From an uncultured Verrucomicrobiota bacterium (GTDB lineage: Bacteria > Auribacterota > JABMQX01): DNA of 64,000 nt. Below are positions 4,162 through 26,233 of this stretch, piece by piece. The DNA is taken from contig CAYZXL010000010.1 of assembly GCA_964482435.1 (NCBI GenBank), forward strand, positions 36,946 to 100,945, given 5' to 3'. The position numbers were made by a program, and so were the translations under genes. The notes beneath the pieces were generated by a model, which made no database searches, was not told where the DNA came from, and saw only the letters and a program-made list of their open reading frames with translations. The first letter of the stretch is position 1. Each line of letters begins with the position of its first letter.

Positions 4162-4791
4162 TCACCTGGCTTCCGCCTGGAAGACGACTTGTTTGATTCG
4201 CATGAGGCGGCTGATGTTAGCGCGCTCAAGCTCCGCAAGCTTCATCTCGATATACTTAACAGTCTCGGAGATGTTCGGGATAAACACGAATTCAAGAGCG
4301 TTCACCCGGCGGCGGGTTCTTTCAATTTCCTCGGAAAGAATGACGATTGTCTTCTCGACGTTGACAAGCTCAATCATGAGAGGAAGCGTCTCGACGAGAA
4401 TCTTGAGGGAGGCGTCCAGGTCGGACGGCGTATGGGCGAGACCGTAGGTGAATGGATTGGGCTGGGTCTCAAGCTCAAGACGGGGAATGCGGACGTTCAG
4501 GAGGCGGCTGACGTGTGCCTTGAGTTTCAATTGCCCTGCCGGGTAGGACAGCGCGGGGGTGAGGAATTTCTCGGAGACGACGGCTCGGCACAGGTCGAAT
4601 TTCCAGAGAGCTTCGTGGACTTTGTCCTGAACCACTCTTCTCAGATCCCTGGCGCGCCCGACGAACTGGAGGAAGTTCCTCATCAACTGCTCCTGTTTAT
4701 CCTGGAGGAGCTTGTGGCCTCGTCGAGCAAGGGCCAGCCTTTTCTTGAGCTTGAGCAGCTCCATGCGATTGGGATTGACGTCGAGCCTCAT
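4162..4791 (-). CDS. atpD: V/A-type ATPase subunit D
   Basis: The 209-aa coiled-coil protein is the last gene of the V-ATPase operon and starts [19 protein letters not shown], typical of subunit D. Confidence 0.85.
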
Positions 4792-6182
4792 GATTCAGCG
4801 CGGCTTCCCCAAGCGGAGTCGTAATACTTTTCAATAAACTGCCTGTGAACTCGTTTCAGTTCCTCTTTGGGGAGGAGTCTTAAGCATTTCCAGCCGATGT
4901 CGAGCGTTTCATTGATGGAGCGGCTAGTCGTTTCCGACTGGCGGACAAACTCGTCCTCGAATCGCTCGGCGAACTTGATGTAAAGGCGGTCCAGTTCCGA
5001 GAGAGCCGCCTCGCCGAGGATGACGGCGAGCTCCTTGGCTTCCCGCCCCTTCGCGTAACAGGCGAAGAGCTGATTGAGGACATCGGCGTGGTCTTCGCGA
5101 GTTTTGCCGGTCCCTATTCCCTTATCCTTCAGACGGGAGAGCGACGGGAGGACGTCAATGGGCGGATAGACCCCCTTTCGGTGCAGCTCGCGGCTGAGCA
5201 TGACCTGCCCTTCGGTTATATAACCGGTGAGATCAGGGACGGGGTGAGTCTTGTCGTCCTCCGGCATGGAGAGAACGGGCATGAGAGTAATGGAACCGAT
5301 TTTGCCCTTGATTCTTCCTGCTCGCTCGTAAACGGTCGCCAGGTCGGTGTACAGGTAGCCCGGGTAGCCGCGGCGGCCTGGAATTTCTTTTCGAGCAGCG
5401 GAGACCTCTCGGAGAGCCTCGCAATAGACAGTCATGTCCATCAGGATGACCAGGACGTGCATGTCGAGGTCGAAGGCGAGATATTCTGCGGCGGTCAGAG
5501 TCATGCGCGGTGTCGCGAGCCTCTCGACGGCAGGGTCGTCGGAAAGGTTAATGAAAAGGACCGCTCGTTCGATGGCGCCGGTTTTCTCAAAATCGGTGAC
5601 GAAGAAATTGGCTTCCTCGAAGGTGACGCCCATGGCGCCGAAGCACACTGCGAATCTTTCCTCCTTGCCCAGGACTCTCGCCTGGCGGGCGACCTGAGCG
5701 GCAATCTTCGGATGCGGAAGACCTGAGCCCGAAAAAATGGGGAGCTTCTGCCCGCGGACGAGGGTGTTCATCCCGTCAATGGCGGAGATGCCCGTCTCGA
5801 TAAACTCAACGGGATAATCCCTTGCGGTCGGGTTGAGAGGGTTGCCGTTGATGTCGAGCTTCTTTTCGGGGATGATGGGCGGTGCGCCATCCTTGGGGCG
5901 ACCCGCACCGTCGAATACCCGGCCGAGGATATCCAGGGAAACCGGCAGCTCGAGACCTCGACCGAGGAACTTGACTTTTGTGCTGCCTATGTCAATGCCT
6001 CTCGTTCCCTCGTACACCTGCACGAGGGCCATGGTTTCGGAGATTTCCAGGACACGCCCCCGTCGAACGCTTCGGTCGCCGAGCTGGACCTCGCAAAGCT
6101 CGTCGTATTTGATGCCAGTAATTTTCTCGACGATGAGGAGCGGTCCGCTGATTTGAGTTACGGTGCGATATTCCTTAAGCAC
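4788..6182 (-). CDS. atpB: V/A-type ATPase subunit B
   Basis: The 464-aa protein has the non-catalytic B-subunit fold and sits immediately downstream of subunit A. Confidence 0.9.
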
Positions 6183-6212
6183 CTTGCTGTGCCTCCCAGG
6201 GTTCTTTCAAGT

Positions 6213-8048
6213 TCAGGTGTTGGGTTTCTTCGCGGGCTGCGCCGTTTTTTCTTCTTCTGGAGTTTCTTTGCCTTTCTGTCTCGATGCGGCCAACTTTTCC
6301 ACCTCGTCCTTGATTTTTGCGCCAATGGCTTCAATTTCGCTGAGATTCTCCTCGTCAACAAACTTGGCACGGGCGATGTCCTGCCGAACGGGAAGCGAAG
6401 TGATGTCCTTGAGCTCGACCTCCTGCTCGACGAGGTCCTTTGAATAACGGTAGAAGTCAATGATGGTTCGCAGGAGATGATATTGCTTTGCGATGGAGGT
6501 GTAAGTGTCGGTGGCGTCGAAGGCGTTCTGATGGAGAAAATCCTCCCGGATGGACCTCGCCGCTTCAAGAACGAGCCGGTCCTGCGGGGAGAGGGACTCG
6601 ACTCCGACGAGACGGGCAATTTCGGCGAGCTCGCTTTCGAGCTGAAGGAGGCGCATCGCTTCGGTTCTCAACTGGTTGAAGTCTTCGTGGACCTTTTCGG
6701 CGAAGTAATCCGCCAGATGCTCGAGATACAGGGAATAACTCAAGAGCCAGTTGATCGCGGGGAAGTGACGCATGTAGGCGAGCCTGTCCTCAAGACCCCA
6801 AAAGACCTTTACCACGCGGAGGGTCGCCTGGACGACAGGGTCTGAGAGGTCCCCGCCCGGCGGTGAGACCGCACCAACGATGCTCAGGGTCGCTTCCCGC
6901 TGTGGCTTGCCGAGGCACTTCACTCTGCCGGCTCTCTCGTAGAAATCTGCAATGCGGTAGCCGAGATAAGCGGGATAGCCCTCCTCTCCGGGCATTTCTT
7001 CGAGCCTGCCGGAGATTTCGCGGAGAGCCTCCGCCCAGCGTGACGTGGAATCCGCCATGACGGCAACGTGATAACCCATGTCGCGGTAATATTCGGCGAG
7101 TGTCACGCCCGTATAGACGCTGGCTTCTCTCGCGGCGACGGGCATGTTGGAGGTGTTGGCGATGAGGATTGTTCGGTGCATGAGGGTCTCTTTAGTGCGC
7201 GGGTCCTTTAGCTGGGGAAATGAAAGCAGCACGTCGGCCATCTCGTTGCCTCGCTCACCGCAGCCGATATAAACGATGATGTCGGCATTGGACCACTTGG
7301 CGAGCTGGTGCTGAATGACGGTTTTGCCGCTGCCGAAAGGACCGGGGACACATGCAGTGCCGCCTTTCGCAACGGGGAACAGCGTGTCAATGACCCTCTG
7401 GCCGGTGACGAGGGGCTCGTTGGGTGCGAGGCGCCTCTCGACGGGGCGGCCGGTTCTGACGGGCCACCGCTGAATCAGGGAGAGTGAGACAACGCCGTCT
7501 CGGGTTTTGACACGGCAGACCGTTTCCTCGACGGTGAATTCCCCTTCACGAATTTCTTCGACGGCGCCTCCGATGCCTGGCGGGACTGTGACCCTGTGGA
7601 CGACAACGGGGCTTTCGGGGATTTCGCCGATGATGTCGCCCGGGCTGAGGGTGTCGCCTTTCTTCACGATGGGCTTGAACGCCCATTTCTTCTCACGGCT
7701 CAGCGCAGGGAGTTCCAGTCCCTTCTGGATGTAGTTCCCGACCCGGGAGCGGATGATCTCCAGGGGCCTCTGGATGCCGTCGAAGATTCCGCCGATAAGA
7801 CCCGGGCCGAGCTCTGCCGAGAGCGGTTCGCCGGTTGAGACGACTGGCTCGGGCGGGCCGATTCCCGCGGTCTCTTCGTAAACCTGGATGAAAGCCTGGT
7901 CGCCTTTCAGGCCGATGATTTCGCCTATAAGCCCTTTTTCACCGACTCGGACTACGTCGTACATTCTGGCGCCGCGCATTTCTCTGGCGACGACGAGAGG
8001 TCCTGAAACGCGCGATATTTTGCCCTCTATGACTTCCTCTTTCTGCAT
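6213..8048 (-). CDS. atpA: V/A-type ATPase catalytic subunit A
   Basis: The 611-aa protein has the Walker A motif GPFGSGKT and the non-homologous insert region typical of A subunits. Confidence 0.9.
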
Positions 8049-8380
8049 TAGATTTCAGCTCCCACAGCTTTAATTGTCGCTCGGCGGATTCTTTCCGCCG
8101 CGAGTCCGGTGCCGGGCTGTCTCTCCGGCAAAAGGATGACCGCCGGGAGAGGCTTGAGGTAGTAAGGCTCCAGGAGACTCCTCATTTCTCCGGCGAGGGT
8201 CTCCGATACGAAGATTGCCGCGTATCCGGCCGCGACGATTTTATCCCAAGCCTTCCTCGCCTGAGCGGCGTCCCTGACGCCGAAGGCATCAAAACCCATT
8301 GCCCGGAAAGCCAGTGCGGCACCCGGCGACCCGAGGAAGGCTACCGGAGAGGTTTTCGTTGTTTGCTTCTCATCAGGCAT
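8048..8380 (-). CDS. atpF: V/A-type ATPase subunit F
   Basis: The 110-aa protein lies between subunits C and A. Confidence 0.8.
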
Positions 8381-9395
8381 AGCTCGCCCTCAAAAGCTCT
8401 CGCACCGCGTCCTCGGGGAAGGACTTTTCCTTCCCGTAAACGATAGTGCGGAGGCGCATGACTTCGTTTTCCTTGGCGACGACATAGCCGACCAGAGGCT
8501 CAATCCCGAAGCAGTAGTGCTTTGCCTTGCGCAGGAAACCAATCAGAAAGTCATCGGCTAACCTATCGAGAGCCGAAAGCTCCTTCCGGGACTGGTAACC
8601 CGCGAGGGCTTCCCGAAGAATCTTGCGGTATGCGTCGTCCGTGACCTTAGCGATGAGGTCTGCGAGGGGCGTTTGGAAGTTCTCAGTGAAAAACGACCGC
8701 TCGATTCTTCCCCCGGGAAGGAGAGCCTCGTTGAGCTCCTCCTCGGGCCAACCCATCACCTGCACCCGGCAGAAGGTTCGGAGGTTAATGAGGTCAATTG
8801 TTCGGCGGGCGTATTCTTCGAGAAAAGGGTTGACGCATAGATTCTTCAGGAACAGCTCGTAGTAGAACTTGTCGAGAGTCGCGTCTATCCGCTCGAGGCT
8901 CAGGTTCTCACCAAGCCGCCTCAGTGCAGCAAGGATGGTCTCACCGACGAAGGGGTCAACGTCGCTGGCAAACGTTTTCTCGTCGCGAATGCGCGTGAGC
9001 TGCTCCTGCGAGAGGAATCCAACGCTTGAGAAGCCTTCCGGCTGAGTTCCGAGAAGTCTCGCCTTCAAAAGGAGCTTCAGATTCTGGAAATCGTACTTGA
9101 GCCGAAAGGTTCTGATGATTTTGCTTCCGAGGGAAAGCTCGCACACGGTCTCGTACGCCTGCCTCAGTTCCTCGTCGAGGATTTCTTCCGTTTCCGTGTC
9201 TCCCGCGGAGACGATGTCGGCGTAATCCGGGAACTCGCCCAGAGCCCGAAGGGCCTCGGCATGGGTCTCCTCCTCGAGCAGCCGCTCCATTTCCGCCAGA
9301 GAAATCAACCGCGCCTCGAGGGCTCTGATGCGCCCGACGGCGTAGGTGTAGCGCGTGTCGGAACCGGGGGTTCTCGCCTCTCTCCACTCCTTCAT
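8373..9395 (-). CDS. atpC: V/A-type ATPase subunit C (d)
   Basis: The 340-aa helical protein occupies the conserved operon position between E and F. Confidence 0.8.
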   Translation of the reverse strand: MKEWREARTPGSDTRYTYAVGRIRALEARLISLAEMERLLEEETHAEALRALGEFPDYADIVSAGDTETEEILDEELRQAYETVCELSLGSKIIRTFRLKYDFQNLKLLLKARLLGTQPEGFSSVGFLSQEQLTRIRDEKTFASDVDPFVGETILAALRRLGENLSLERIDATLDKFYYELFLKNLCVNPFLEEYARRTIDLINLRTFCRVQVMGWPEEELNEALLPGGRIERSFFTENFQTPLADLIAKVTDDAYRKILREALAGYQSRKELSALDRLADDFLIGFLRKAKHYCFGIEPLVGYVVAKENEVMRLRTIVYGKEKSFPEDAVRELLRASYA

Positions 9396-9997
9396 TTTTT
9401 ATCTCCGAACAGGATTGCTGCAACTTGCGACTGCGATTCCTCTCTGAGCTGACGGAGGAGCGTTCCGAACGAGCAGTCCACTTCCACGTCCTCGGTGCGC
9501 AAGATGAAACCGCCACGTACATCGGGGGATGTGCCGTCGAGCCTGAGGCGTCCGTGCCTGCCTGTTTTCTTCAACTCTTCGTTCACTTGCTCAATAAAGC
9601 TCTGGTCAATTTTCTTCTCATCCTGGGGCGAGACTAAGACGCGCTCGTCGCCGGTTGTGGCGAGATTCAGGAGCATCCTTCGGATGAGGGATTGATATTC
9701 CGCCGCAGGAAGACTGACAAGCTCCTCGAGCGCCGCCTGGAAACAATCTTCTAAGAGCTTCTGCTTTTCCGTGAGGATTTCCTTGCGATGCTCCAGCTCC
9801 GCAGAGACGGTGGACTGGCGTCTGTCAAGCTCGACTTTACGGGATGCCTCGTTGAGGATTCTTTCGCCGATTTCCTTAGCCTGGGACTCGGCTCTGGCGA
9901 CGATTTCCTGGCGCTTGAGGCGACCTTCCTCCTCAATCGCCCCTGTTTCCTCCCGGGCGTTCCTGTTGATTTTCTCGAGGATGCCTTCGAGCGCCAT
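9392..9997 (-). CDS. atpE: V/A-type ATPase subunit E
   Basis: The 201-aa protein has a charged coiled-coil N-terminus and sits in the E position of the operon. Confidence 0.8.
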   Translation of the reverse strand: MALEGILEKINRNAREETGAIEEEGRLKRQEIVARAESQAKEIGERILNEASRKVELDRRQSTVSAELEHRKEILTEKQKLLEDCFQAALEELVSLPAAEYQSLIRRMLLNLATTGDERVLVSPQDEKKIDQSFIEQVNEELKKTGRHGRLRLDGTSPDVRGGFILRTEDVEVDCSFGTLLRQLREESQSQVAAILFGDKK

Positions 9998-9999
9998 TT

Positions 10000-10464
<465 letters not shown>

Positions 10465-10475
10465 TCACCTCCTGT

Positions 10476-12425
10476 TTATTCCTCGATAACCGTGAATTTA
10501 TTCTCGATTGACAACGGCCGGAATGGCCTGCCCGAAGTGCTGAAAAACTTGGAAAAGAACTCAACAAATTGAAGCCTCATGGAATGAACGAAGGCACCCA
10601 GCACGTTAATTAGAAGGGTAAAAATATGCCCTGCGGCGAGAATGGTGACTGCCAGGACGACGCCCACCAGGGGCACGCTCTTGCGAACAGTCGAGGCGAT
10701 GAGGTTGACCGTCGAAGCCATAGCCCCGGTCACTAACCCCAAAGCCCAGAGTCGAGAATAGGAGAGGACGTCGCTTAAGTACCCCGACGCCGCCCAGTAA
10801 AAGCTGAGGACGCCGAAGCCCAACTTCCCGGCGAGGGAGCGCTGGCTTCTTCCATGCGCCGCAAGGATAACCAAAGCCCCCGCGCCTATCAGAGTGAGGC
10901 AGAGCTTGACGTTGGTTGGTTTTGCCGACAGGGTTTTCAGGAAGATAAGACCGGCGCCTGTCAATCCCGCCAGGAGAACGAATATGGGCAGCTGGTCCAA
11001 GAGAGCGTCCTTGTACTTTCTCAGGCGAAGGCTCCCGTAGGCAGCTACAGCGTACCCGGTCCATATCTGGACGATGCCCAGAACGAGAGCGATGTTGAGG
11101 AGACGCGTCGGTTCCTTTTGAGGATCGAGGAGGATCGCGGGGATACCGAGCAGATTGCCCATCCAACTGCCGGTCAGCGCCCCGACGACTATCGTTGATA
11201 GCCCGCAATAGCGCATGAGCCGGAAAAACCGCGTTCCCTGCCACCCCATCTTGAGCTTCTTGAGAGCGAACAGCGAAACCAGAACAAGCACCAAACCGTA
11301 CACAGCATCACCCAGGCAAAATCCAAAAAAGACAAAGAAAAATGGAGCAAGAAACGGCGTCGGGTCAACGCCCTGGTACCCCGGATAACCGTAAACGCGC
11401 GTCAGGAATTCAAACGGGCGGACAACGTTTTTGTTTTCAAGGACGGTTGGCGGAACATCGTCCGGTGAGGGGGCGGAAACGTAAACCTCGACGGAATCGA
11501 AGAGCTTTTCCATTCTTTTCTGGGCGGCGGGGGCGTCGCTTTGCCTTATCCAGCCCTCGAGGAAGAAGCTCTCCCGGCTGTAGAGGAGCCGCTCCTTCGT
11601 TCCCTCTTTCTTTTCCATGTTCGAGAAGTAGTCCAGGAGGGCAGCGACCTTCGTCTCCTCCGAAAGCATTGTGACCGCCTTATCGCGCAGCGCCTGCCGC
11701 TCGGATTCCAGTTTCCTGTCGTCGGCGGATATATGATTCAGGACTTCCTCGACGCGAGCCGGATGGCGCGGGAGATGGTGAAGCGAAACGTCGTGCTCCC
11801 TCAGAAGCTCGGCGACCTGCTCCTCAAAAGCCCTGAGGTACGTGATGGAAAAATAGACTGTGGCCTTGTCCTGGTCCACGACTTCCATGTGCACCTCCGG
11901 AAAGGAGGCGACCGACTCCTTGAGGGCGGGGAAAGCTTTCTGGCCGACCGAGCCTAAGACGCTATTTGTGAACCGGGTTTCGCCAAGCTGGTTGAGACGA
12001 ACATCCAGACGAATCCATGGGAGAAGTTCCTTTCTTCTGCCTTCGTGCTCGAGCTTTTTCTTTTCGATGTCCCTGAGTGCGGACTCGATTTTGCGGCTGT
12101 GGTTGTACAGAGTTGGGTAGTCAAAGCCGCTGACTATTTCAAGCACTTCCTTCCGACGGAATACGGGCTTGGCGGCGAGGCGAGACCTCTTTTTCCCGGA
12201 AAGGTTTTCAAGAAAGTTCATCAGCCAGGAAAGCTTCTCGACGGCTTCTTTGACCGGCTCATAACGGGCGATCTGTCGCCCAAACGAGAAGTCCTTGTAT
12301 TCATCGCTCTTGTCCTTGAGGTCAACGACCTCCACCTGCCCTTGATGTTGCAGGAACTCAAGAACGCGGTCGCGCTCGGAGTCATGCCCGAGGATTTGGA
12401 TTTTTTTGAGCCTTGCTACTGCCAT
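10476..12425 (-). CDS. atpI: V/A-type ATPase subunit I (a)
   Basis: The 649-aa protein has a soluble N-terminal half and a polytopic C-terminal membrane half. The start overlaps the G/H gene end, indicating an operon. Confidence 0.85.
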   Translation of the reverse strand: MAVARLKKIQILGHDSERDRVLEFLQHQGQVEVVDLKDKSDEYKDFSFGRQIARYEPVKEAVEKLSWLMNFLENLSGKKRSRLAAKPVFRRKEVLEIVSGFDYPTLYNHSRKIESALRDIEKKKLEHEGRRKELLPWIRLDVRLNQLGETRFTNSVLGSVGQKAFPALKESVASFPEVHMEVVDQDKATVYFSITYLRAFEEQVAELLREHDVSLHHLPRHPARVEEVLNHISADDRKLESERQALRDKAVTMLSEETKVAALLDYFSNMEKKEGTKERLLYSRESFFLEGWIRQSDAPAAQKRMEKLFDSVEVYVSAPSPDDVPPTVLENKNVVRPFEFLTRVYGYPGYQGVDPTPFLAPFFFVFFGFCLGDAVYGLVLVLVSLFALKKLKMGWQGTRFFRLMRYCGLSTIVVGALTGSWMGNLLGIPAILLDPQKEPTRLLNIALVLGIVQIWTGYAVAAYGSLRLRKYKDALLDQLPIFVLLAGLTGAGLIFLKTLSAKPTNVKLCLTLIGAGALVILAAHGRSQRSLAGKLGFGVLSFYWAASGYLSDVLSYSRLWALGLVTGAMASTVNLIASTVRKSVPLVGVVLAVTILAAGHIFTLLINVLGAFVHSMRLQFVEFFSKFFSTSGRPFRPLSIENKFTVIEE

Positions 12426-20276: not shown

Positions 20277-21725
20277 ATGAAGCTGAGAGGTGGGTACAAC
20301 ATTTTGCTGAAGGGAAAGCCAGGCAGGGAGATGGAGTCGCTTCCTGAACCGCGCATGCTTTACTTGCCACTCAGAAGCAAGCGGTTCAACTTCTCGGAAA
20401 ACTGCGTGAGAGACGGAGAATGGGTAATCGCCGGTCAGGTCCTTGCGAGGGACCCGGCGAACCACTTGCTGCCACTGCTGGCGCCGAGGGCGGGGACAGC
20501 TCGGCTCGGGGCTGTCGCAGAGCATCTCATCCTGGAAGACATCGGCATGGCGCCGGAGGAACCGCGCCCTTCGGACGCGGAAGCCCCGCATGTTTCAACG
20601 GAGGTGCGGTCTGCCGACGAGAAGCGAGGCCAACTCCTGGAGCTTGGGGCGTGGCAGTTCGTGTGCGATGCGCAGACCGGTGAGCTGCCCGACCCATTTG
20701 GGACGCCGCGCGCAGTTATTGTCTCAAGTGTTCGGCTTGAGCCTTTTGTCGCCAGAGGGGACGTGCAGCTCTATGAGCAACTCCCGATTTTCGTTAGGGG
20801 GCTGGAGCATCTGCAGTCTCTCCTGGAGTATCAGCCGATGTATCTCGTTATGCCGGACACTGAGTCGGCGTTTGCCAGGCACGTGCGGGAGATGCTTCGC
20901 GGGTATGCATGGATAAAGCTGGTGGAGGTCCCGCTGCGCTATCCTTACGACGATTTCACGATTCTGGCGCGGGGTCTGGGATTGATGAAGGAGTCCGCAC
21001 CCAAAAAGGACGCTCAAAGCTCGTCCCCCATGGAGCCTTCGGTCAGCGGACCGAACGGGCCGGTGTGGGCGCTGCGGACGGAAGGGGCTCTGGCGATAGA
21101 CCGTGCGCTGACGCATTCTCTGCCATGCACGAGCAGAGTTGTTTCAGTCGGCGGGCCAGCGGTTGAGTCACCAACCCACATTAAGGCAATCCCCGGCTAT
21201 CCTCTCAAGGCGATCCTTGGTTCGCGTTTGTCCACGGGACGAGTCAGGGTGGTCAACGGCGGAGCGCTCACGGGCGAGATCATCGGGGAAGAGCAGCTTG
21301 GGCTGGACGTCGAGTGCTCCGGGCTAACGGTTCTTCCGGACGAGACCGAGAGGGAATTTTTAGGATTCGCGCGCCCGGGGTGGAGTCGGCGGTCGTATAG
21401 CCGGTGCTTTCCCGGTTCGCTCCGGCGGCCATTCGCCGAGCGTCTCACGACGGGGCTGCGTGGTGAACGACGAGCATGCATCTCGTGCAATTTCTGCGAA
21501 GAAGTGTGCCCGGCTGGCATTATGCCCCACCTGATTCACAAGTACCTTTATCAGGGCGCGCTCGAGGAGGCAGAGAGGGCGCGCGTGGACCTGTGCGTCG
21601 AATGCGGGCTGTGTTCGCTTGTGTGCCCGTCGAAGATCGAGCTTGTCAAGCAATTCTCTGAGGCGAAGGAGAGGATTCGGCGAGAGCTGGAGGAGGTCGC
21701 GGCGGGCCGGGAGGCGGAGAGATGA
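20277..21725 (+). CDS. nqrA: NqrA/RnfC-family subunit with a C-terminal 2x[4Fe-4S] ferredoxin motif
   Basis: It is the first gene of the six-gene operon. The C-terminus contains CISCNFCEEVCP and CVECGLCSLVCP (two CxxCxxCxxxCP motifs). No RnfC-type GGAGFP NADH-binding motif was seen. Confidence 0.7.
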   Translation: MKLRGGYNILLKGKPGREMESLPEPRMLYLPLRSKRFNFSENCVRDGEWVIAGQVLARDPANHLLPLLAPRAGTARLGAVAEHLILEDIGMAPEEPRPSDAEAPHVSTEVRSADEKRGQLLELGAWQFVCDAQTGELPDPFGTPRAVIVSSVRLEPFVARGDVQLYEQLPIFVRGLEHLQSLLEYQPMYLVMPDTESAFARHVREMLRGYAWIKLVEVPLRYPYDDFTILARGLGLMKESAPKKDAQSSSPMEPSVSGPNGPVWALRTEGALAIDRALTHSLPCTSRVVSVGGPAVESPTHIKAIPGYPLKAILGSRLSTGRVRVVNGGALTGEIIGEEQLGLDVECSGLTVLPDETEREFLGFARPGWSRRSYSRCFPGSLRRPFAERLTTGLRGERRACISCNFCEEVCPAGIMPHLIHKYLYQGALEEAERARVDLCVECGLCSLVCPSKIELVKQFSEAKERIRRELEEVAAGREAER

Positions 21726-22810
21726 GGCGGCTGCTTCGTTTGTTTGAACGGGCGCGCCCCCAATTCGAAGAGGGCGGCAGATTTGGTGTTCTAAAGCCGC
21801 TTTTCAACGCAATCGAGAATTTCTTTTTCTCGTCGGGTGTCTCGACGGCGGATGCCCCCCACGTCCGTGATGCGCTCGACGTAAAGCGGTACATGGCCAC
21901 TGTAGTTGCCGCGCTTCTGCCATGCGCGTTTGCGGCAGTGTACTTTTTCAGCTGGCGGGTTATGGCGATGGCAGTCGTTTCTTACGTGGTCGGCGGGGCG
22001 ATCGAAGTGTTTTTTGCCATCGTGAGGAAGGAAGAGATTAACGAAGGATTTTTGGTAACGGGCCTGATTTTCCCGCTGATTTTGCCGCCGGGGCTTCCGT
22101 TGTGGATGGTGGCTGTCGGTATCGCGTTCGGCGTGATTGTGGGAAAGGAGATATTTGGCGGCACAGGACGGAATCTCTTCAACCCGGCGCTCGTTGGGCG
22201 GTGCTTTCTGGCAATCGGGTATCCGGCGGCGATGTCGTCGAACTGGATTGAGCCAGGGACGGGCCTCGTCGGGCGGTTGGGGCAGTACATCGGCGCTTCA
22301 AGCGTGGATGCCATCACGTCGGCAACGCCTTTAGCGTTAGCGAAGCAAGGGACGCTCGTTCCACTGAGCGACCTTTTCTGGGGGAACGTGCCGGGGAGCG
22401 CGGGAGAGACATCGGCCTTTGCGATTCTTCTTGGCGGGACGTTTCTCGTTCTGACGCGGGTGGCGAACTGGCGGACGGTGGTCGGGACGCTGGGGTCGTT
22501 TGCGTTGTCAGGAGAGGTGCTGCATCTTGTCGAGCCGGGTAAGTTTGGGCCGGTGGGATGGCATCTGTGCGCTGGCGGGCTGCTGTTCGGGGCGTTTTTC
22601 ATGGCGACGGACCCGGTGACCAGCCCAATCACGAACGGTGGGAAATGGGCCTGCGCCATTATCATCGGCGTGGCGACGCTCCTCATGCGAAACCTCACCG
22701 GCTACGTCGAGGGAGTGATGTTCGCGATACTCTTAGGGAACATCGCCGCGCCTGTGCTGGATGAGGTTGCTTTTCGGTTTCGGCTGCGGAGGTTAAAGGA
22801 TGAAAGGTAG
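21722..22810 (+). CDS. nqrB: Na+-NQR subunit B (NqrB/RnfD family)
   Basis: This polytopic membrane protein has a conserved S-x-D-A-x-T-S-A-T-P-L FMN-attachment-like motif (GASSVDAITSATPLALAK) and a 4-nt overlap with nqrA. Confidence 0.85.
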   Translation: MRRLLRLFERARPQFEEGGRFGVLKPLFNAIENFFFSSGVSTADAPHVRDALDVKRYMATVVAALLPCAFAAVYFFSWRVMAMAVVSYVVGGAIEVFFAIVRKEEINEGFLVTGLIFPLILPPGLPLWMVAVGIAFGVIVGKEIFGGTGRNLFNPALVGRCFLAIGYPAAMSSNWIEPGTGLVGRLGQYIGASSVDAITSATPLALAKQGTLVPLSDLFWGNVPGSAGETSAFAILLGGTFLVLTRVANWRTVVGTLGSFALSGEVLHLVEPGKFGPVGWHLCAGGLLFGAFFMATDPVTSPITNGGKWACAIIIGVATLLMRNLTGYVEGVMFAILLGNIAAPVLDEVAFRFRLRRLKDER

Positions 22811-23429
22811 CGCCTACACGGTTGTTTATTCTGCGATTCTGGGGGCGGTTTGCGCACTTCTGCTCACCGGAGCGAGCAGGCTCACGGCGCCGTACCAGGA
22901 AGCAAACGCCGAGGCCGAAGAGAAACGCAACATCCTCCGTGTCCTGGGAATTCCCTTTGAGGAGAAAGCGTCATCGCGAGACCTTCTGAGGGTCTTTGAA
23001 AAGAACGTTCGCATCGAGAAGCGCGGAAACGCGAATTTCTATCTGTACATTGACCCGGACGCCGAGCGACGGGTTCAGGCTCTGGCGGTGCCCTTTGATG
23101 GGCCGGGGGTTTGGGGGCCTATCAAAGGTTTTCTCTCCCTGAAGCCTGACTATGAGACGATTCGCGGAATCACTTTCTACAAGCACGAGGAAACGCCCGG
23201 ACTGGGCGGCGAAATCGAGTCAGAGTGGTTCAGGAATCAGTTCAAAGGGAAGTCCATAAAGGACGCACAGGGCAGACCAGGGATTCGGATTCTGCGGGGA
23301 GGCGGGGCAAAGGCGCTAAATGAGGTTGATGGAATTACCGGCGCCACCATGACTTCTCAGAAAGTCGAGGCGATTCTGAACTCGACCATCAAGAGGATTG
23401 TTCAAGAGCGCGGAACGAATGGCAAATAA
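22800..23429 (+). CDS. nqrC: Na+-NQR subunit C (FMN-binding, NqrC/RnfG family)
   Basis: The protein has a single N-terminal TM helix and the covalent-FMN threonine motif GITGATMTSQ. Confidence 0.85.
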   Translation: MKGSAYTVVYSAILGAVCALLLTGASRLTAPYQEANAEAEEKRNILRVLGIPFEEKASSRDLLRVFEKNVRIEKRGNANFYLYIDPDAERRVQALAVPFDGPGVWGPIKGFLSLKPDYETIRGITFYKHEETPGLGGEIESEWFRNQFKGKSIKDAQGRPGIRILRGGGAKALNEVDGITGATMTSQKVEAILNSTIKRIVQERGTNGK

Positions 23430-24084
23430 AGCACCAATCGAGTGTCAATCCTGCCTTGCCGGGACGCCGGGAGGAGGAAAGGGCGTGCGAACGCTCAAGG
23501 ATGGGCTATGGGCGAATAACCCCATCTCGGTACAGGTCCTCGGCATTTGCTCGACGCTGGCGGTAACAAGCCGATTGGAGAATTCGCTTGTGATGGGGGC
23601 AGCGCTCATTTTCGTCACCGCCGGGTCAAATCTTTTTGTTTCATTGCTTCGAAACGCCACCCCGCGTCGCATCCGGATGATCGCGGAAGTATGCATCATT
23701 GCGACGTTCGTCATTGTCTTCGACCAGTTCCTGAGAGCCTTTTACTGGGACATGTCGAAACAGCTCGGGCCATACGTCGGGCTGATCATCACGAACTGTA
23801 TTGTGATGGGGCGAGCGGAGGCCTTCGCTCTCCAGAACAGGCCCCTTCTTTCCGTGATAGACGGGGCAGCCAACGGGCTTGGGTACGCGATTGTGCTGGC
23901 AATCATCGGATTTTTCCGAGAGCTTTTGGGGAAGGGAGAGCTTTTCGGTCAGCCGGTTCTTTTATCGGAATGGTACACACCCAACCAGTTGGTCATCCTT
24001 GCGCCGGGGGCATTCTTTGCGCTCGGTTTCCTCATAGCGCTGTTCAATGCGGCCAAATCCGTCCGAAAGGAGCCAAAACCATGA
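23398..24084 (+). CDS. nqrD: Na+-NQR subunit D (NqrD/RnfE family)
   Basis: This polytopic membrane protein has the conserved Cys of the NqrD/E family (GICSTLAV). The start may be the internal MANKAPIE. Confidence 0.8.
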   Translation: MFKSAERMANKAPIECQSCLAGTPGGGKGVRTLKDGLWANNPISVQVLGICSTLAVTSRLENSLVMGAALIFVTAGSNLFVSLLRNATPRRIRMIAEVCIIATFVIVFDQFLRAFYWDMSKQLGPYVGLIITNCIVMGRAEAFALQNRPLLSVIDGAANGLGYAIVLAIIGFFRELLGKGELFGQPVLLSEWYTPNQLVILAPGAFFALGFLIALFNAAKSVRKEPKP

Positions 24085-24671
24085 ACGAGCCGTCGGCTTT
24101 GCTGATAGTCATCGCGGCCATTTTCACGAACAACATCTTGCTGTCGAATTTCTTGGGAATGTGCTCGTTTCTGGTGTGCTCGCGGCAGATGGACAGCGCA
24201 ATCGGACTCGGAATGGCGGTTGTCTTCGTCATGACCTGCACGACGCCGCTGAACTACGCCATCTATTACGATCTGCTGGTCCCTCTGGGGATTCAGCACA
24301 TGGCGCTGATTGTGTTCATTGCAGTGATTGCCGCGTTCGTGCAATTCGTGGAAATGTTCGTCGAGCGGTTCACCCCGAAACTCTATTACTCCCTTGGGAT
24401 TTTCCTTCCGCTGATAACGGTGAACTGCGCGATTCTCGGAGCATGCCTGTTCATGCTGGTCCGGAATTACAACTTCGCTCAGGCAACAGGCTATGGGTTT
24501 GGGGCGGGTGTGGGCTGGGCGCTGGCAATTGTACTTATGGCCGGGCTGAGACAGAAGATGGGGTACAGCAACGTTCCGCGGCCGTTGCAGGGCGTGGCGA
24601 TTGTGATGATTATCACGGGCGTGATGGCGATGGCGTTTTTAGGATTTGCCGGAATGGTGGCCATTCAATAG
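24081..24671 (+). CDS. nqrE: Na+-NQR subunit E (NqrE/RnfA family)
   Basis: An ATG at 24081 begins MNEPSALLIVIAAIFTNNILLSNFLGMCSF, a typical NqrE/RnfA N-terminus. The ORF-track 374-aa frame upstream of this ATG overlaps nqrD and is not coding. Confidence 0.8.
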   Translation: MNEPSALLIVIAAIFTNNILLSNFLGMCSFLVCSRQMDSAIGLGMAVVFVMTCTTPLNYAIYYDLLVPLGIQHMALIVFIAVIAAFVQFVEMFVERFTPKLYYSLGIFLPLITVNCAILGACLFMLVRNYNFAQATGYGFGAGVGWALAIVLMAGLRQKMGYSNVPRPLQGVAIVMIITGVMAMAFLGFAGMVAIQ

Positions 24672-24678
24672 GCGGCGT

Positions 24679-25767
24679 ATGGTCTTTTTGTCTCCGATAC
24701 TTGCGTTCGTGGGCATTCTGGTTGGGCTGGCTGTCGTGCTGGTCGTGGCGGAGCGCGTCCTGGTCAGATATGGTGTCTGCAAGATAGACATCAACGGAGG
24801 GCAGCGCGAGCTTGAGGTGCAGGGCGGCCAGACGGTCCTTTCAGCGCTGAATGCCGAGCAAATATTCATCCCATCAGCGTGCGGGGGAAGGGGTTCGTGC
24901 GGATACTGCAAGGTTACGGTCCTCGCGGGTGGCGGGACAGTTCTTCCGACGGAGACGCCACTCCTGACAAGGCAGGAAATCCGACGAGGTGTGAGGCTCG
25001 CCTGCCAGGTGAAATTGCGAGAAGACATCCGAATAGAGATTCCTGAAGAACTCCTGGAGGTGAGGCTTTTCACGGCGAAGGTGGAAGGCACGCGATACCT
25101 CACGCACGACATCAAGGAAATCAAGGTCGCCCTCATTGACCCGCCGGACATACCGCACCGCCCCGGGCAGTACGTTCAGGTTCAGGTTCCTTCCGTGGGC
25201 GAGCCAGTCTTCCGGGCGTACTCGATCAGCTCGCCGGCCTATGAGCCGAACGTTGTTGAGCTGGTGGTGCGGCTGGTGCCCGGTGGTCTCGGCTCAACGT
25301 ACCTGCATAACGTGCGAGTCGGCGACACGATAACGTTCACGGGGCCGTTTGGGGAATTCCGGCTGAGTGAGGATCCCGAGAAGGAGGTCGTCTGCGTCGG
25401 AGGCGGATGCGGACTGGCGCCGATGAAGAACATTGTCTATTCTTTGTACAGACGCTGGCCGGACCGGCCGTGCTGGCTGTTTTTCGGGTGCCGGACAACG
25501 GAGGACGTCTTCTACCTCGAGGAGTTTGAAGAGATGGCCCACCGACACCCGAGCTTTCGGGTTGTTTACGCCCTTTCCGAACCGAGGCCGGGAGAGGAAT
25601 GGCGCGGGGAGAGAGGATTTATCCATCTTTCCGTTGACAAGTATTTGAAGCCGGGGGTGAATCGTCAGGCGTTCTTATGCGGGCCTGCCCCGATGATTGA
25701 GGCGGTCACGGAGGTTCTGAAGGAGAAGGGCTTGCAGCCGCGAGACATCTATTACGATAAATTTTGA
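24679..25767 (+). CDS. nqrF: Na+-NQR subunit F (2Fe-2S ferredoxin plus FAD/NADH-binding domain)
   Basis: The protein has an N-terminal TM helix, a plant-type [2Fe-2S] motif CGGRGSCGYCKV and an FNR-like domain (RAYSISS, GGGCGLAPM). The start is taken at MVFLSPILAF. Confidence 0.85.
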   Translation: MVFLSPILAFVGILVGLAVVLVVAERVLVRYGVCKIDINGGQRELEVQGGQTVLSALNAEQIFIPSACGGRGSCGYCKVTVLAGGGTVLPTETPLLTRQEIRRGVRLACQVKLREDIRIEIPEELLEVRLFTAKVEGTRYLTHDIKEIKVALIDPPDIPHRPGQYVQVQVPSVGEPVFRAYSISSPAYEPNVVELVVRLVPGGLGSTYLHNVRVGDTITFTGPFGEFRLSEDPEKEVVCVGGGCGLAPMKNIVYSLYRRWPDRPCWLFFGCRTTEDVFYLEEFEEMAHRHPSFRVVYALSEPRPGEEWRGERGFIHLSVDKYLKPGVNRQAFLCGPAPMIEAVTEVLKEKGLQPRDIYYDKF

Positions 25768-25780
25768 GGAGGGCAGGAGA

Positions 25781-26233
25781 ATGGCGGTTGTTACAGTTGA
25801 GGACGTGCTCAGGCATGCAAGAGACTTCGAGCAAGCCATCGCGGACTTTTACTCGAGACTATCGCAGCAGACGAGTCTTGACGGTGTCCGATTGCTGGCG
25901 GATTACATGAGCCGACACCGGGCAAGGGTCGCGTGGGCCCTCGGCTGCCTTCCTTCGGAACACGTTCAGCGAATGTGTTCCGCGCCGCTGCGCTATGAGC
26001 CGCAGGGGGCGGACTGTCGGTGCTTCGAGCGGATAGAACTGCCTCCGGCCACGACGGCGGCAAGCGTCCTGGAAACCGCGGTGACGTTCAGCGAATGCCT
26101 GGTCAGGCTTTATCGGCAGGTTGTTCAGCAGCCACTGGACGAGGAGGTCAGGGAGTTCTTTGAGAGCTTCATCCGCCTCGAACATCGAGAAGAGATAGAG
26201 CTGAAGAAGATTCAGGCGATGGATTACTTTTAA
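25781..26233 (+). CDS. hypothetical protein immediately downstream of nqrF (possible NQR accessory factor)
   Basis: The 150-aa ORF starts 14 bp after the nqrF stop on the same strand. It contains five Cys, is predicted mainly helical and has no recognised motif. Confidence 0.45.
   Translation: MAVVTVEDVLRHARDFEQAIADFYSRLSQQTSLDGVRLLADYMSRHRARVAWALGCLPSEHVQRMCSAPLRYEPQGADCRCFERIELPPATTAASVLETAVTFSECLVRLYRQVVQQPLDEEVREFFESFIRLEHREEIELKKIQAMDYF

What the first reader, a model, noticed from the sequence alone, without database searches (positions are those of the whole stretch)
20277..21725. NQR-type operon whose A subunit retains an RnfC-like 2x[4Fe-4S] ferredoxin tail
The six-gene operon ends with a bona fide NqrF ([2Fe-2S] CGGRGSCGYCKV plus FAD/NADH domain). 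NqrB and NqrC carry the covalent-FMN threonine motifs, so it is NQR-type rather than RNF-type. Characterised NqrA has no cofactor, whereas its evolutionary relative RnfC carries two [4Fe-4S] clusters. This A subunit ends with CISCNFCEEVCP...CVECGLCSLVCP (about 21478-21636), a textbook di-cluster ferredoxin motif, but lacks an obvious RnfC NADH/FMN-binding GGAGFP motif. That looks like an evolutionary intermediate between RNF and NQR, or an NQR with an extra electron input or output route.
Basis: partly seen in the sequence, partly recalled or inferred. Interest (0 to 1): 0.65.

Follow-up and report, generated by a model that had tools for sequence, protein, structure and literature searches.

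The report
NQR sodium pump with iron-sulfur NqrA
This is a six-gene sodium-pumping NADH:quinone reductase (NQR) operon whose A subunit still carries the two iron-sulfur cluster sites of its RNF ancestor; textbooks call this subunit cofactor-free, yet a large uncultured branch of the family has these sites.

Summary
Window 20277-25767 (+) is an nqrABCDEF-type operon ending in a true NqrF. Its A subunit (482 aa) has NqrA-type N-terminal domains, has lost the RnfC FMN/NADH loop, and keeps a complete 2x[4Fe-4S] motif (C401/404/407/411 and C440/443/446/450).

This is not a one-off. At least 853 database clusters resemble it. All eight Cys are essentially invariant in 121 close homologs, and 116 of 118 full-length 50%-identity representatives have all eight. 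Related loci, mostly Planctomycetota MAGs, keep the same A-F operon.

A second Fe-S NqrA clade (Marinamargulisbacteria, Desulfobacterales) groups with cofactor-free NqrA (100/100 bootstraps). Cofactor-free NqrA forms one derived subclade within that group (97-100/100). Some members keep exactly one cluster's ligand set. Fe-S NqrA is therefore the ancestral state of NQR.

The NqrB quinone and riboflavin residues are conserved, and polyprenyl and heme synthesis genes sit beside related operons. I therefore read the complex as a Na+-NADH:(mena)quinone reductase. By homology with RNF, a two-cluster side branch would lie about 12 Å from riboflavin. Whether that branch is a structural dead end or a port to another partner is unresolved.

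Papers searched, including a 2025 review, describe NqrA as cofactor-free. I call this a new variant of a known kind, with moderately high interest.

The parts
20277..21725 (+). nqrA-like gene (482 aa): NqrA-type N-terminal and middle domains plus a C-terminal 2x[4Fe-4S] ferredoxin domain
   Evidence: Best PDB sequence match is V. cholerae NqrA (E=8e-25), ahead of RnfC (2e-15). The AF2 model (pLDDT 77) matches 7xk3_A best (E=3e-24), then RnfC 8ahx_C (8e-21).
20640..20675 (+). Degenerate remnant of the RnfC/NuoF FMN-binding glycine loop (aa 122-133, ELGAWQFVCDAQ)
   Evidence: Alignment: RnfC has GxGGAxFP, V. cholerae NqrA has SGLWTAFRTRPF. None of 44 clade members hits Pfam Complex1_51K.
21477..21512 (+). 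First CxxCxxCxxxCP motif (C401, C404, C407, C411, P412)
   Evidence: Invariant in 120-121 of 121 homologs.
21594..21629 (+). Second CxxCxxCxxxCP motif (C440, C443, C446, C450, P451)
   Evidence: Invariant in 121/121 homologs. V. cholerae NqrA keeps only the last two Cys.
21722..22810 (+). nqrB (362 aa): FMN attachment motif DAITSAT (aa 196-202); NqrB-specific N-terminal helices and quinone/riboflavin-site residues conserved
   Evidence: V. cholerae NqrB 4e-72, RnfD 3e-43. Residues mapped from PMC10643135..
22800..23429 (+). nqrC (209 aa): FMN_bind domain, flavinylation motif DGITGAT (aa 177-183)
   Evidence: (TIGR01938 151 bits, above cut-off 144).
23398..24084 (+). nqrD (start codon uncertain; homology begins near nt 23488): the two Cys expected for the intramembrane [2Fe-2S]
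   Evidence: (NF006777 260 bits, above cut-off 235).
24081..24671 (+). nqrE (196 aa): the two Cys expected for the intramembrane [2Fe-2S]
   Evidence: (TIGR01940 232 bits; rnfA 213).
24646..25767 (+). nqrF (373 aa, TTG start): TM helix, plant-type [2Fe-2S] (CGGRGSCGYC...C), FAD and NADH domains
   Evidence: V. cholerae NqrF 2e-66 in two stretches.
25781..26233 (+). 150-aa ORF directly after nqrF with no family match; conserved at the same position in four related loci
   Evidence: L001, L002, L007, L008; 53-63% identity.

Best explanation
This is an early-branching member of the Na+-NQR family, not an RNF. NADH is oxidised at NqrF. Electrons then pass through the conserved membrane core: the NqrD/E [2Fe-2S], FMN on NqrC, FMN on NqrB, then riboflavin in NqrB. 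They leave to a quinone, probably menaquinone, at the conserved NqrB rim site, and this flow drives Na+ export. Unlike every characterised NQR, the A subunit has kept the two [4Fe-4S] clusters of its RnfC ancestor while losing the FMN/NAD+ site those clusters used to feed. By homology with RNF, the proximal cluster should lie about 12 Å from riboflavin. That is about the same distance as the quinone, so riboflavin has a second, two-cluster side branch pointing into the cytoplasm. I think this branch is most likely a retained ancestral element that is assembled, redox-connected and needed for stability or electron buffering in anaerobes. It was lost cluster by cluster in the lineage leading to the canonical enzyme. 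Shown here: gene content, motifs, conservation, phylogenetic position and NqrB site conservation. Inferred: cluster binding, geometry, quinone as acceptor, and the role of the clusters.
For: Identity as NQR: the order is ABCDEF with a full NqrF and no RnfB. Subunits B-F score higher on Nqr than on Rnf models. A lies in the NqrA-type clade at 100/100, also with the 361 non-Fe-S columns alone.

Cluster binding: a complete dicluster motif. The Cys are invariant in 121 homologs, and 116 of 118 full-length 50%-identity representatives down to about 25% identity have 8/8. Partial-loss forms keep exactly C1-C3 of motif 1 plus the last Cys of motif 2, which is one whole cluster's ligand set. One such form checked sits in a normal nqrABCDEF-apbE operon.

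Quinone acceptor: the V. cholerae NqrB quinone-site residues are conserved (L26, A29, L33 to F, G140/G141, N156, F159), as are the riboflavin residues D346, F338 and F342 and the NqrB-only N-terminal helices (PMC10643135). A polyprenyl synthetase lies next to the operon in 10 related loci, and heme-synthesis genes in 5-11.

Geometry: riboflavin to [4Fe-4S]RnfC-2 is 11.7 Å in RNF (PMC9588780). Riboflavin to ubiquinone is 11.6 Å in NQR (PMC10643135).

Ancestral state: RnfC, G4, G2 and G1 all have eight Cys, and canonical NqrA is one monophyletic subclade inside G1 (97-100/100).
Against: There is no biochemical evidence that the clusters are present or what their potentials are. Strict conservation of eight Cys over such divergence is more than I would expect for a purely structural remnant and could indicate catalytic use. 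A, B, E and F fall below the NCBIfam equivalog cut-offs, so functional equivalence to V. cholerae NQR is not guaranteed. The trees are neighbour-joining on a modest sample. The clade's own monophyly is weak (51-56/100). The neighbour-gene evidence for quinone use comes from related loci and not from this window.
Confidence: 0.55

Rival explanations
1. The two clusters are a working port. They pass electrons from riboflavin to a soluble or peripheral cytoplasmic acceptor. Alternatively they accept electrons from a low-potential donor such as ferredoxin and feed them to riboflavin and quinone, or they reduce a quinone bound in the former FMN pocket of NqrA. The enzyme would then have a second input or output route that canonical NQR lacks.
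For: All eight Cys are conserved across deep divergence, and losses occur in whole-cluster units. The homologous clusters in RnfC are an on-pathway wire from riboflavin (PMC9588780). The RNF/NQR core is combined with different peripheral modules in related loci (L036/L037). The function of NqrA is acknowledged as unknown (PMC12174285).
Against: No conserved candidate partner gene was found in the operon across the 37 loci. ORF150 is limited to 5 loci, and the other neighbours are biosynthetic or regulatory. The FMN/NAD pocket is degenerate. The NqrB quinone site is intact, so no second route is required. By the polarity of the pump, an acceptor must be more positive than NADH, which excludes ferredoxin reduction (inference).
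Confidence: 0.27
2. The Cys motifs are relics that no longer bind clusters (a pseudo-ferredoxin domain), so this NqrA is functionally the same as canonical cofactor-free NqrA.
For: Canonical NqrA works without them (PMC12174285). The AF2 confidence in the domain is only moderate (pLDDT 54-81).
Against: The Cys are invariant in 120-121 of 121 homologs, and 116 of 118 distant representatives have 8/8. Where constraint was lifted, the Cys were replaced quickly (patterns MIYMLLCC, IVYLLLAC). Both CP dipeptides and the spacing are canonical.
Confidence: 0.08
3. The gene is simply RnfC and the operon is an RNF-like ferredoxin:NAD+ oxidoreductase with an odd sixth gene.
For: The C-terminal 85 aa match rnfC models well (TIGR01945 113 bits overall). 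RnfC_N hits 30 of 44 clade members.
Against: There is no RnfB. The sixth gene is a full NqrF. There is no FMN loop and no Complex1_51K hit. The RnfC score is far below its cut-off (113 against 246). The protein clusters with NqrA and not RnfC at 100/100. NqrB-specific N-terminal helices are present.
Confidence: 0.03
4. A ferredoxin domain was secondarily fused onto a canonical, cofactor-free NqrA.
For: Domain fusions with Fer4 modules are common in general.
Against: V. cholerae NqrA aligns through the whole domain with the same length and keeps the vestigial C-x3-CP. The RnfC domain is collinear. All outgroups carry the domain. There is no linker or length increase.
Confidence: 0.02

Closest known systems
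Na+-translocating NADH:quinone oxidoreductase of Vibrio cholerae (NqrABCDEF; PDB 7XK3, 8A1U)
   Same: Six genes in the same order. NqrF has the TM helix, [2Fe-2S], FAD and NADH domains. Flavinylation motifs are present in B and C, and the Cys pairs in D and E. The NqrB N-terminal amphipathic helices and the quinone and riboflavin residues are conserved. The fold and domain order of A match, and A shows the same degeneration of the FMN loop (G-x-W-x-x-F).
   Different: A keeps eight Cys for two [4Fe-4S] clusters where V. cholerae has M, I, Y, M, L, L, C, C. NqrB lacks the roughly 50-residue insert (V. cholerae 84-133). NqrC and NqrF are shorter. There is no apbE or nqrM in or next to the operon. 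A is only about 21% identical and far below the NCBIfam NqrA cut-offs.
RnfC of the RNF complex (PDB 7ZC6, 8AHX, 9ERI)
   Same: A C-terminal ferredoxin domain with the same two CxxCxxCxxxCP motifs and spacing. The same overall fold (Foldseek E=8e-21). It presumably docks in the same way on the B/D subunit next to riboflavin.
   Different: There is no FMN or NAD+ site (glycine loop lost, no Complex1_51K hit). There is no partner RnfB; an NqrF is present instead. By phylogeny it lies on the NqrA side of the RnfC/NqrA split.
Uncharacterised Fe-S NqrA of Marinamargulisbacteria and Desulfobacterales NQR operons (group G1 here; that NQR is described only as nqrABCDEF in PMC6349859)
   Same: NqrA-type protein with all eight Cys in an nqrABCDEF operon. 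This is the same combination of a lost FMN site and retained clusters.
   Different: G1 is the closest Fe-S relative of canonical NqrA: full-length E=9e-62 to V. cholerae NqrA, and up to 401 bits on NF003761. Its operon carries apbE. The window protein belongs to a separate, deeper group (G2, mostly Planctomycetota) that is about 25-30% identical to G1.
NuoF/Nqo1-type NADH dehydrogenase modules (complex I, HydB)
   Same: Distant fold relatives of the middle domains of RnfC and NqrA (Foldseek E about 1e-7).
   Different: No FMN site, no NuoF-type cluster N3 motif, and a different domain order at the C terminus.

Membership tests
Na+-NQR (NqrABCDEF) | Six-gene operon in the order A-B-C-D-E-F | tested here: met
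   The same order holds in all related loci long enough to show it.
Na+-NQR (NqrABCDEF) | NqrF electron-input subunit: TM helix, plant-type [2Fe-2S], FAD and NADH domains; no RnfB polyferredoxin | tested here: met
   (V. cholerae NqrF E=2e-66; four cluster Cys aligned). No RnfB-like ORF lies in or beside the operon.
Na+-NQR (NqrABCDEF) | NqrB-specific N-terminal amphipathic helices and quinone-site residues (V. cholerae L26, A29, L33, G141, N156, F159) plus riboflavin D346 | tested here: met
   The alignment gives L27, A30, F34, G92, N107, F110 and D297. RnfD matches begin only at aa 38-42. Residue roles are taken from PMC10643135.
Na+-NQR (NqrABCDEF) | Covalent-FMN motifs in B and C, and Cys pairs in D and E for the membrane [2Fe-2S] (these are shared with RNF, so they do not discriminate) | tested here: met
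   B DAITSAT, C DGITGAT, D C21/C104, E C28/C116.
Na+-NQR (NqrABCDEF) | NqrA without redox cofactors | tested here: not met
   A complete, invariant 2x[4Fe-4S] motif. This is the feature that sets the locus apart. Cluster occupancy itself was not measured.
Na+-NQR (NqrABCDEF) | NCBIfam equivalog cut-offs for each subunit | tested here: inconclusive
   C (151 against 144) and D (260 against 235) pass. B (351 against 414; 339 against 350), E (232 against 248) and F (267 against 295) fall just below. A is far below (178 against 450).
Na+-NQR (NqrABCDEF) | Na+-dependent NADH:quinone oxidoreductase activity | not testable with these tools
   Requires biochemistry.
RNF complex (RnfABCDGE) | RnfB polyferredoxin input subunit | tested here: not met
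   No such gene is present; NqrF sits in its place.
RNF complex (RnfABCDGE) | RnfC FMN/NAD+ site (GxGGAxFP loop, Complex1_51K domain) | tested here: not met
   (0 of 44 clade members hit Complex1_51K). TIGR01945 scores 113 bits against a cut-off of 246.
RNF complex (RnfABCDGE) | RnfC C-terminal 2x[4Fe-4S] ferredoxin domain | tested here: met

The most novel reading that the evidence does not exclude
In this large, uncultured branch of the NQR family the A subunit is not inert. It is a two-cluster wire that gives riboflavin a second exit or entrance. These pumps would then couple NADH oxidation, and possibly ferredoxin oxidation, to an acceptor or donor other than the NqrB-bound quinone. On this reading canonical NqrA is the burnt-out stub of that port.
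Probability: 0.27. Interest if true: 0.85.

Novelty: new variant of a known kind. Interest (0 to 1): 0.66.

Why it matters
NqrA is the one NQR subunit with no assigned function. [quoted passage not shown] This analysis shows that the NqrF-containing NQR lineage began with an Fe-S NqrA and that many extant lineages still have one. These include Planctomycetota, Marinamargulisbacteria and Desulfobacterales. Natural two-cluster, one-cluster and no-cluster forms exist.

This turns the published loss scenario for the RNF-to-NQR transition into something testable. It questions the proposed Chlorobi/Bacteroidetes origin. It also supplies natural variants for asking what NqrA does and whether some NQRs have a second electron route.

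There is a practical point for annotation. These proteins are currently named only '4Fe-4S dicluster domain-containing protein' and fail the NqrA equivalog models, so NQR is probably under-called in anaerobic MAGs.

Tried and rejected
(1) 'Simply RnfC' was rejected. There is no FMN loop and no Complex1_51K hit, an NqrF is present, and the protein clusters with NqrA.

(2) Secondary ferredoxin fusion was rejected, because V. cholerae NqrA aligns through the whole domain and keeps a vestigial CxxxCP.

(3) My first tree suggested that V. cholerae NqrA nests deep inside the Fe-S group G1. With 12 canonical sequences added, the canonical forms are a monophyletic subclade within a G1-plus-canonical clade supported at 100/100. 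Whether they are sister to the Fe-S G1 sequences or nested among them is unresolved (36/100 and 2/100).

(4) My first N-terminal-only NJ tree was a saturated ladder caused by undefined distances. I redid it with capped distances.

(5) I had hoped the one-cluster forms would sit on the stem leading to canonical NqrA. Instead they nest inside the Fe-S G1 sequences, so they are independent partial losses.

(6) I looked for apbE in the window and in the flanks of related G2 loci and found none. I did not search for nqrM.

(7) I looked for a conserved partner gene next to the operon. I found only biosynthetic or regulatory neighbours, plus a 150-aa ORF restricted to 5 loci.

(8) Seven full-text literature searches for an Fe-S-bearing NqrA found no description. 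The library lacks most subscription journals, so absence is not proof.

(9) Which RnfC cluster (proximal or distal) corresponds to which Cys motif could not be taken from the papers. No model or PDB coordinates were inspected.

(10) No cultured organism with this NqrA type was identified. All 37 genome loci are MAGs or SAGs.
Full report
OBSERVATION. The ORF at 20277-21725 (+) encodes a 482-aa protein ending in RACISCNFCEEVCPAGIMPH...DLCVECGLCSLVCPSKIEL. Pfam places six 4Fe-4S dicluster families above their gathering scores at aa 398-454. It also finds NQRA_2nd (aa 116-196) and NQRA_SLBB (aa 288-335).

The five genes that follow are tightly packed or overlapping. They are an NqrB/RnfD-family protein (21722-22810), an FMN_bind protein (22800-23429), two Rnf-Nqr membrane proteins (23398-24084 and 24081-24671), and a Fer2+FAD_binding_6+NAD_binding_1 protein (24646-25767). 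The last of these matches V. cholerae NqrF at E=2e-66, including the N-terminal TM helix and the four [2Fe-2S] Cys. There is no RnfB.

NQR OR RNF. On NCBIfam, every subunit scores higher on the Nqr model than on the Rnf counterpart:
- B: 351 against 246
- C: 151 against 59
- D: 260 against 210
- E: 232 against 213
- F: 267 on nqrF
- A: 178 on NqrA NF003761 against 113 on rnfC

Only C and D clear the equivalog cut-offs. B, E and F miss narrowly, and A misses by far. NqrB carries the N-terminal stretch that RnfD lacks: aa 6-86 align to V. cholerae NqrB 5-83, while RnfD matches start at aa 38-42.

This is not valid, because RnfD and RnfG are flavinylated too (PMC12174285, PMC9588780). The conclusion still holds on the other evidence.

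THE A SUBUNIT IS A MOSAIC OF CHARACTER STATES. RnfC has the FMN loop GxGGAxFP (C. tetanomorphum GMGGATFPT). At that position the window protein has ELGAWQFVCDA and V. cholerae NqrA has SGLWTAFRTRPF. None of 44 clade members hits Complex1_51K, while 42 hit NQRA_2nd and all 44 hit Fer4 dicluster families.

The C-terminal domain is collinear with the same region of V. cholerae NqrA. There the eight Cys positions read M, I, Y, M, L, L, C, C, and only LCTFVCP survives. The Fe-S tail is therefore retained ancestry and not a fusion.

An AlphaFold2 model (mean pLDDT 77, pTM 0.76) matches V. cholerae NqrA best (7xk3_A, E=3e-24). RnfC follows closely (8ahx_C, 8e-21).

HOW COMMON IT IS. A search of 5.8 billion proteins returned at least 853 clusters. 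The best 120 are 57-96% identical and all have Fer4 domains. Where named, they are called '4Fe-4S dicluster domain-containing protein' from Planctomycetota, Phycisphaerales or Sedimentisphaerales MAGs. Seven Cys are invariant in 121/121 sequences and C404 in 120/121.

A scan of GTDB species genomes gave 37 loci. Almost all are MAGs of Planctomycetota. Every locus long enough keeps A-B-C-D-E-F with a full-length NqrF, except the two divergent variant loci L036 and L037.

An exhaustive HMMER search of 50%-identity representatives gave 3804 hits (158 at E<1e-30). Of the 118 full-length representatives among the best 150, 116 have 8/8 Cys. The two exceptions lack or have diverged in the C-terminal region. 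None has the FMN loop at the aligned site.

These representatives fall into three main groups:
- G2 is the window's group. It has 48 representatives.
- G1 has 22 representatives. These are full-length orthologs of V. cholerae NqrA (E=9e-62) and score up to 401 bits on NF003761. They come from Marinamargulisbacteria and Desulfobacterales.
- G4 has 45 representatives. The N terminus is RnfC-like but the FMN loop is degenerate (ALGEAGIPT). One comes from an anammox bacterium.

PHYLOGENY. I harvested reference sequences from PDB alignments and took canonical NqrA sequences. Neighbour-joining trees with 100 bootstraps (68 taxa) gave the following:
- The split of (RnfC + G4) from (G1 + canonical + G2): 100/100.
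- G1 + one-cluster forms + canonical NqrA as a clade: 100/100.
- Canonical cofactor-free NqrA monophyletic: 97-100/100.
- G2 monophyletic: only 51-56/100.

Results are the same when the Fe-S domain columns are removed and only the 361 N-terminal columns are used. RnfC, G4, G2 and G1 all carry eight Cys, and both G1 and G2 sit in NqrF-containing operons. The simplest reading is that NQR arose with an Fe-S NqrA and that the cofactor-free state is derived.

Four G1-type sequences have the pattern CCCC-xxx-C. This is exactly the ligand set of one complete cluster in a dicluster ferredoxin: Cys 1-3 of motif 1 plus Cys 4 of motif 2, from established ferredoxin chemistry. One of them sits in a normal nqrABCDEF-apbE operon. 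They nest inside the Fe-S G1 sequences. Loss in whole-cluster units argues that the clusters are really assembled.

WHAT THE COMPLEX PROBABLY DOES. The V. cholerae NqrB residues that form the ubiquinone site are conserved in the window protein (residue roles from PMC10643135; alignment):

| V. cholerae NqrB | Window NqrB |
|---|---|
| L26 | L27 |
| A29 | A30 |
| L33 | F34 (the P. aeruginosa state) |
| G140/G141 | G91/G92 |
| N156 | N107 |
| F159 | F110 |
| F160 | L111 |

The riboflavin residues are conserved as well: D346 to D297, F338 to F289 and F342 to F293.

In related G2 loci the operon has respiratory neighbours within 3.5 kb. A trans-polyprenyl synthetase occurs in 10 loci, 8 of them downstream within 3.5 kb of nqrF. 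Heme-synthesis genes are also present: AhbA/B-like in 11 loci, a HemD/CobA fusion in 9 and HemA in 5. This points to a respiratory, quinone-using context. The G1-type NQR of Marinamargulisbacteria has likewise been placed upstream of menaquinone and a terminal oxidase (PMC6349859). I therefore read the window operon as a Na+-translocating NADH:(mena)quinone oxidoreductase.

THE CLUSTERS. In C. tetanomorphum RNF, riboflavin in RnfD passes electrons 11.7 Å to [4Fe-4S]RnfC-2, then to RnfC-1 and on to FMN (PMC9588780). In V. cholerae NQR, riboflavin is 11.6 Å from the quinone (PMC10643135). By homology, the window complex has both: a quinone site and a two-cluster wire at similar distance from riboflavin. 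The wire now ends where the FMN pocket used to be.

Because the core pump has a fixed polarity, any acceptor on that wire must be more oxidising than NADH (my inference). This excludes NADH-driven ferredoxin reduction. It leaves three possibilities: a structural or buffering dead end, an exit to a higher-potential cytoplasmic partner, or an entry for low-potential electrons that bypasses the pump.

I favour the first, at about 0.55 including the identity claims. The reasons are that no conserved partner gene accompanies the operon and the quinone site is intact. The strict conservation of eight Cys keeps the port hypothesis alive at about 0.27. Nothing here measures cluster occupancy or potential.

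COMPARISON WITH WHAT IS KNOWN. Papers in the searchable library state that NqrA has no cofactor and no assigned function (PMC12174285, 2025; PMC9588780). The evolutionary model of Reyes-Prieto et al. (PMC4014512) postulated loss of the RnfC cysteines after RnfB loss, with an origin in Chlorobi/Bacteroidetes. It did not report extant Fe-S NqrA.

Seven full-text searches found no description of one. The library omits most subscription journals. Annotation pipelines see the Fer4 domain but name the protein generically.

The locus is thus a new variant of a known kind. It passes every NQR test except 'NqrA without cofactors' and the stricter equivalog cut-offs. It fails the defining RNF tests (RnfB and the FMN/NAD site).

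VERDICT. Interest is moderately high (0.66). The locus gives a concrete handle on the one NQR subunit whose role is unknown, and on the RNF-to-NQR transition. The mechanism of the retained clusters remains inference.

Noticed in passing
window 4162-12425 (-): A complete V/A-type ATPase operon lies 8 kb upstream of the nqr operon: subunits I 10476-12425, K 10000-10461, E 9392-9997, C 8373-9395, A 6213-8048, B 4788-6182 and D 4162-4791. The 153-aa K (c-ring) subunit has PGTQG, HQG and VEIY. As far as I recall, this resembles the T/Q/Q/E Na+-binding signature of Enterococcus hirae NtpK, and it would fit a Na+-based energy economy.
   Followed up: partly
window 25781-26233 (+): A 150-aa ORF lies 14 nt after nqrF. 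It has no Pfam or NCBIfam match and several Cys. It is conserved at the same position in only four related loci (L001, L002, L007, L008; 53-63% identity). It could be a clade-specific accessory protein.
   Followed up: partly
L037 7983-15836 and L036 3079-10677: This is a further modular variant of the RNF/NQR core. Fe-S A, then B, C, D and E, are followed by a truncated NqrF (TM helix plus [2Fe-2S] only). In L036 this is fused to a NuoE-like domain. NuoE-like and NuoF-like genes (Complex1_51K + NADH_4Fe-4S + Fer4) follow, and in L037 a NuoG/HydA-N-terminal-like gene. L036 is preceded by a Rex-like repressor. The NqrF FAD/NADH domain appears to be replaced by a NuoEF-type module.
   Followed up: partly
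L038 8001-9356 (P0328); also P0324, P0329, P0346: These NqrA proteins keep exactly one [4Fe-4S] ligand set (CCCC-xxx-C). L038 (P0328), the only one checked, sits in a normal nqrABCDEF-apbE operon. They are natural one-cluster intermediates and nest among the two-cluster G1 forms.
   Followed up: yes
proteins P0185-P0268 (group G4); L039 887-2440: About 45 representative clusters of A subunits have an RnfC-like N terminus (TIGR01945 200-230 bits, just below cut-off) but a degenerate FMN loop (ALGEAGIPT). All keep eight Cys. One is from Candidatus Anammoxibacter. These may be RnfC-like subunits that have also lost FMN.
   Followed up: partly
related loci L002-L035, within 3.5 kb of the operon: Polyprenyl synthetase occurs in 10 loci. 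Alternative heme-synthesis genes also recur: AhbA/B-like in 11, a HemD/CobA fusion in 9, HemA in 5 and a radical SAM gene in 8. A response-regulator/histidine-kinase pair occurs in 8. None of these neighbours is found next to the operon in the window itself.
   Followed up: partly
window 23398-23490 and 24646-24671: The mechanical nqrD ORF starts at a TTG that overlaps nqrC by 32 nt. Its first roughly 30 residues have no counterpart in homologs, so the true start is probably further downstream. nqrF starts at a TTG overlapping nqrE by 26 nt.
   Followed up: no
window 20277-25767 and flanks; G2 loci: No apbE (flavin transferase) gene was detected in the 64-kb window or beside the G2 operons. 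The G1 and one-cluster operons have apbE directly after nqrF.
   Followed up: partly
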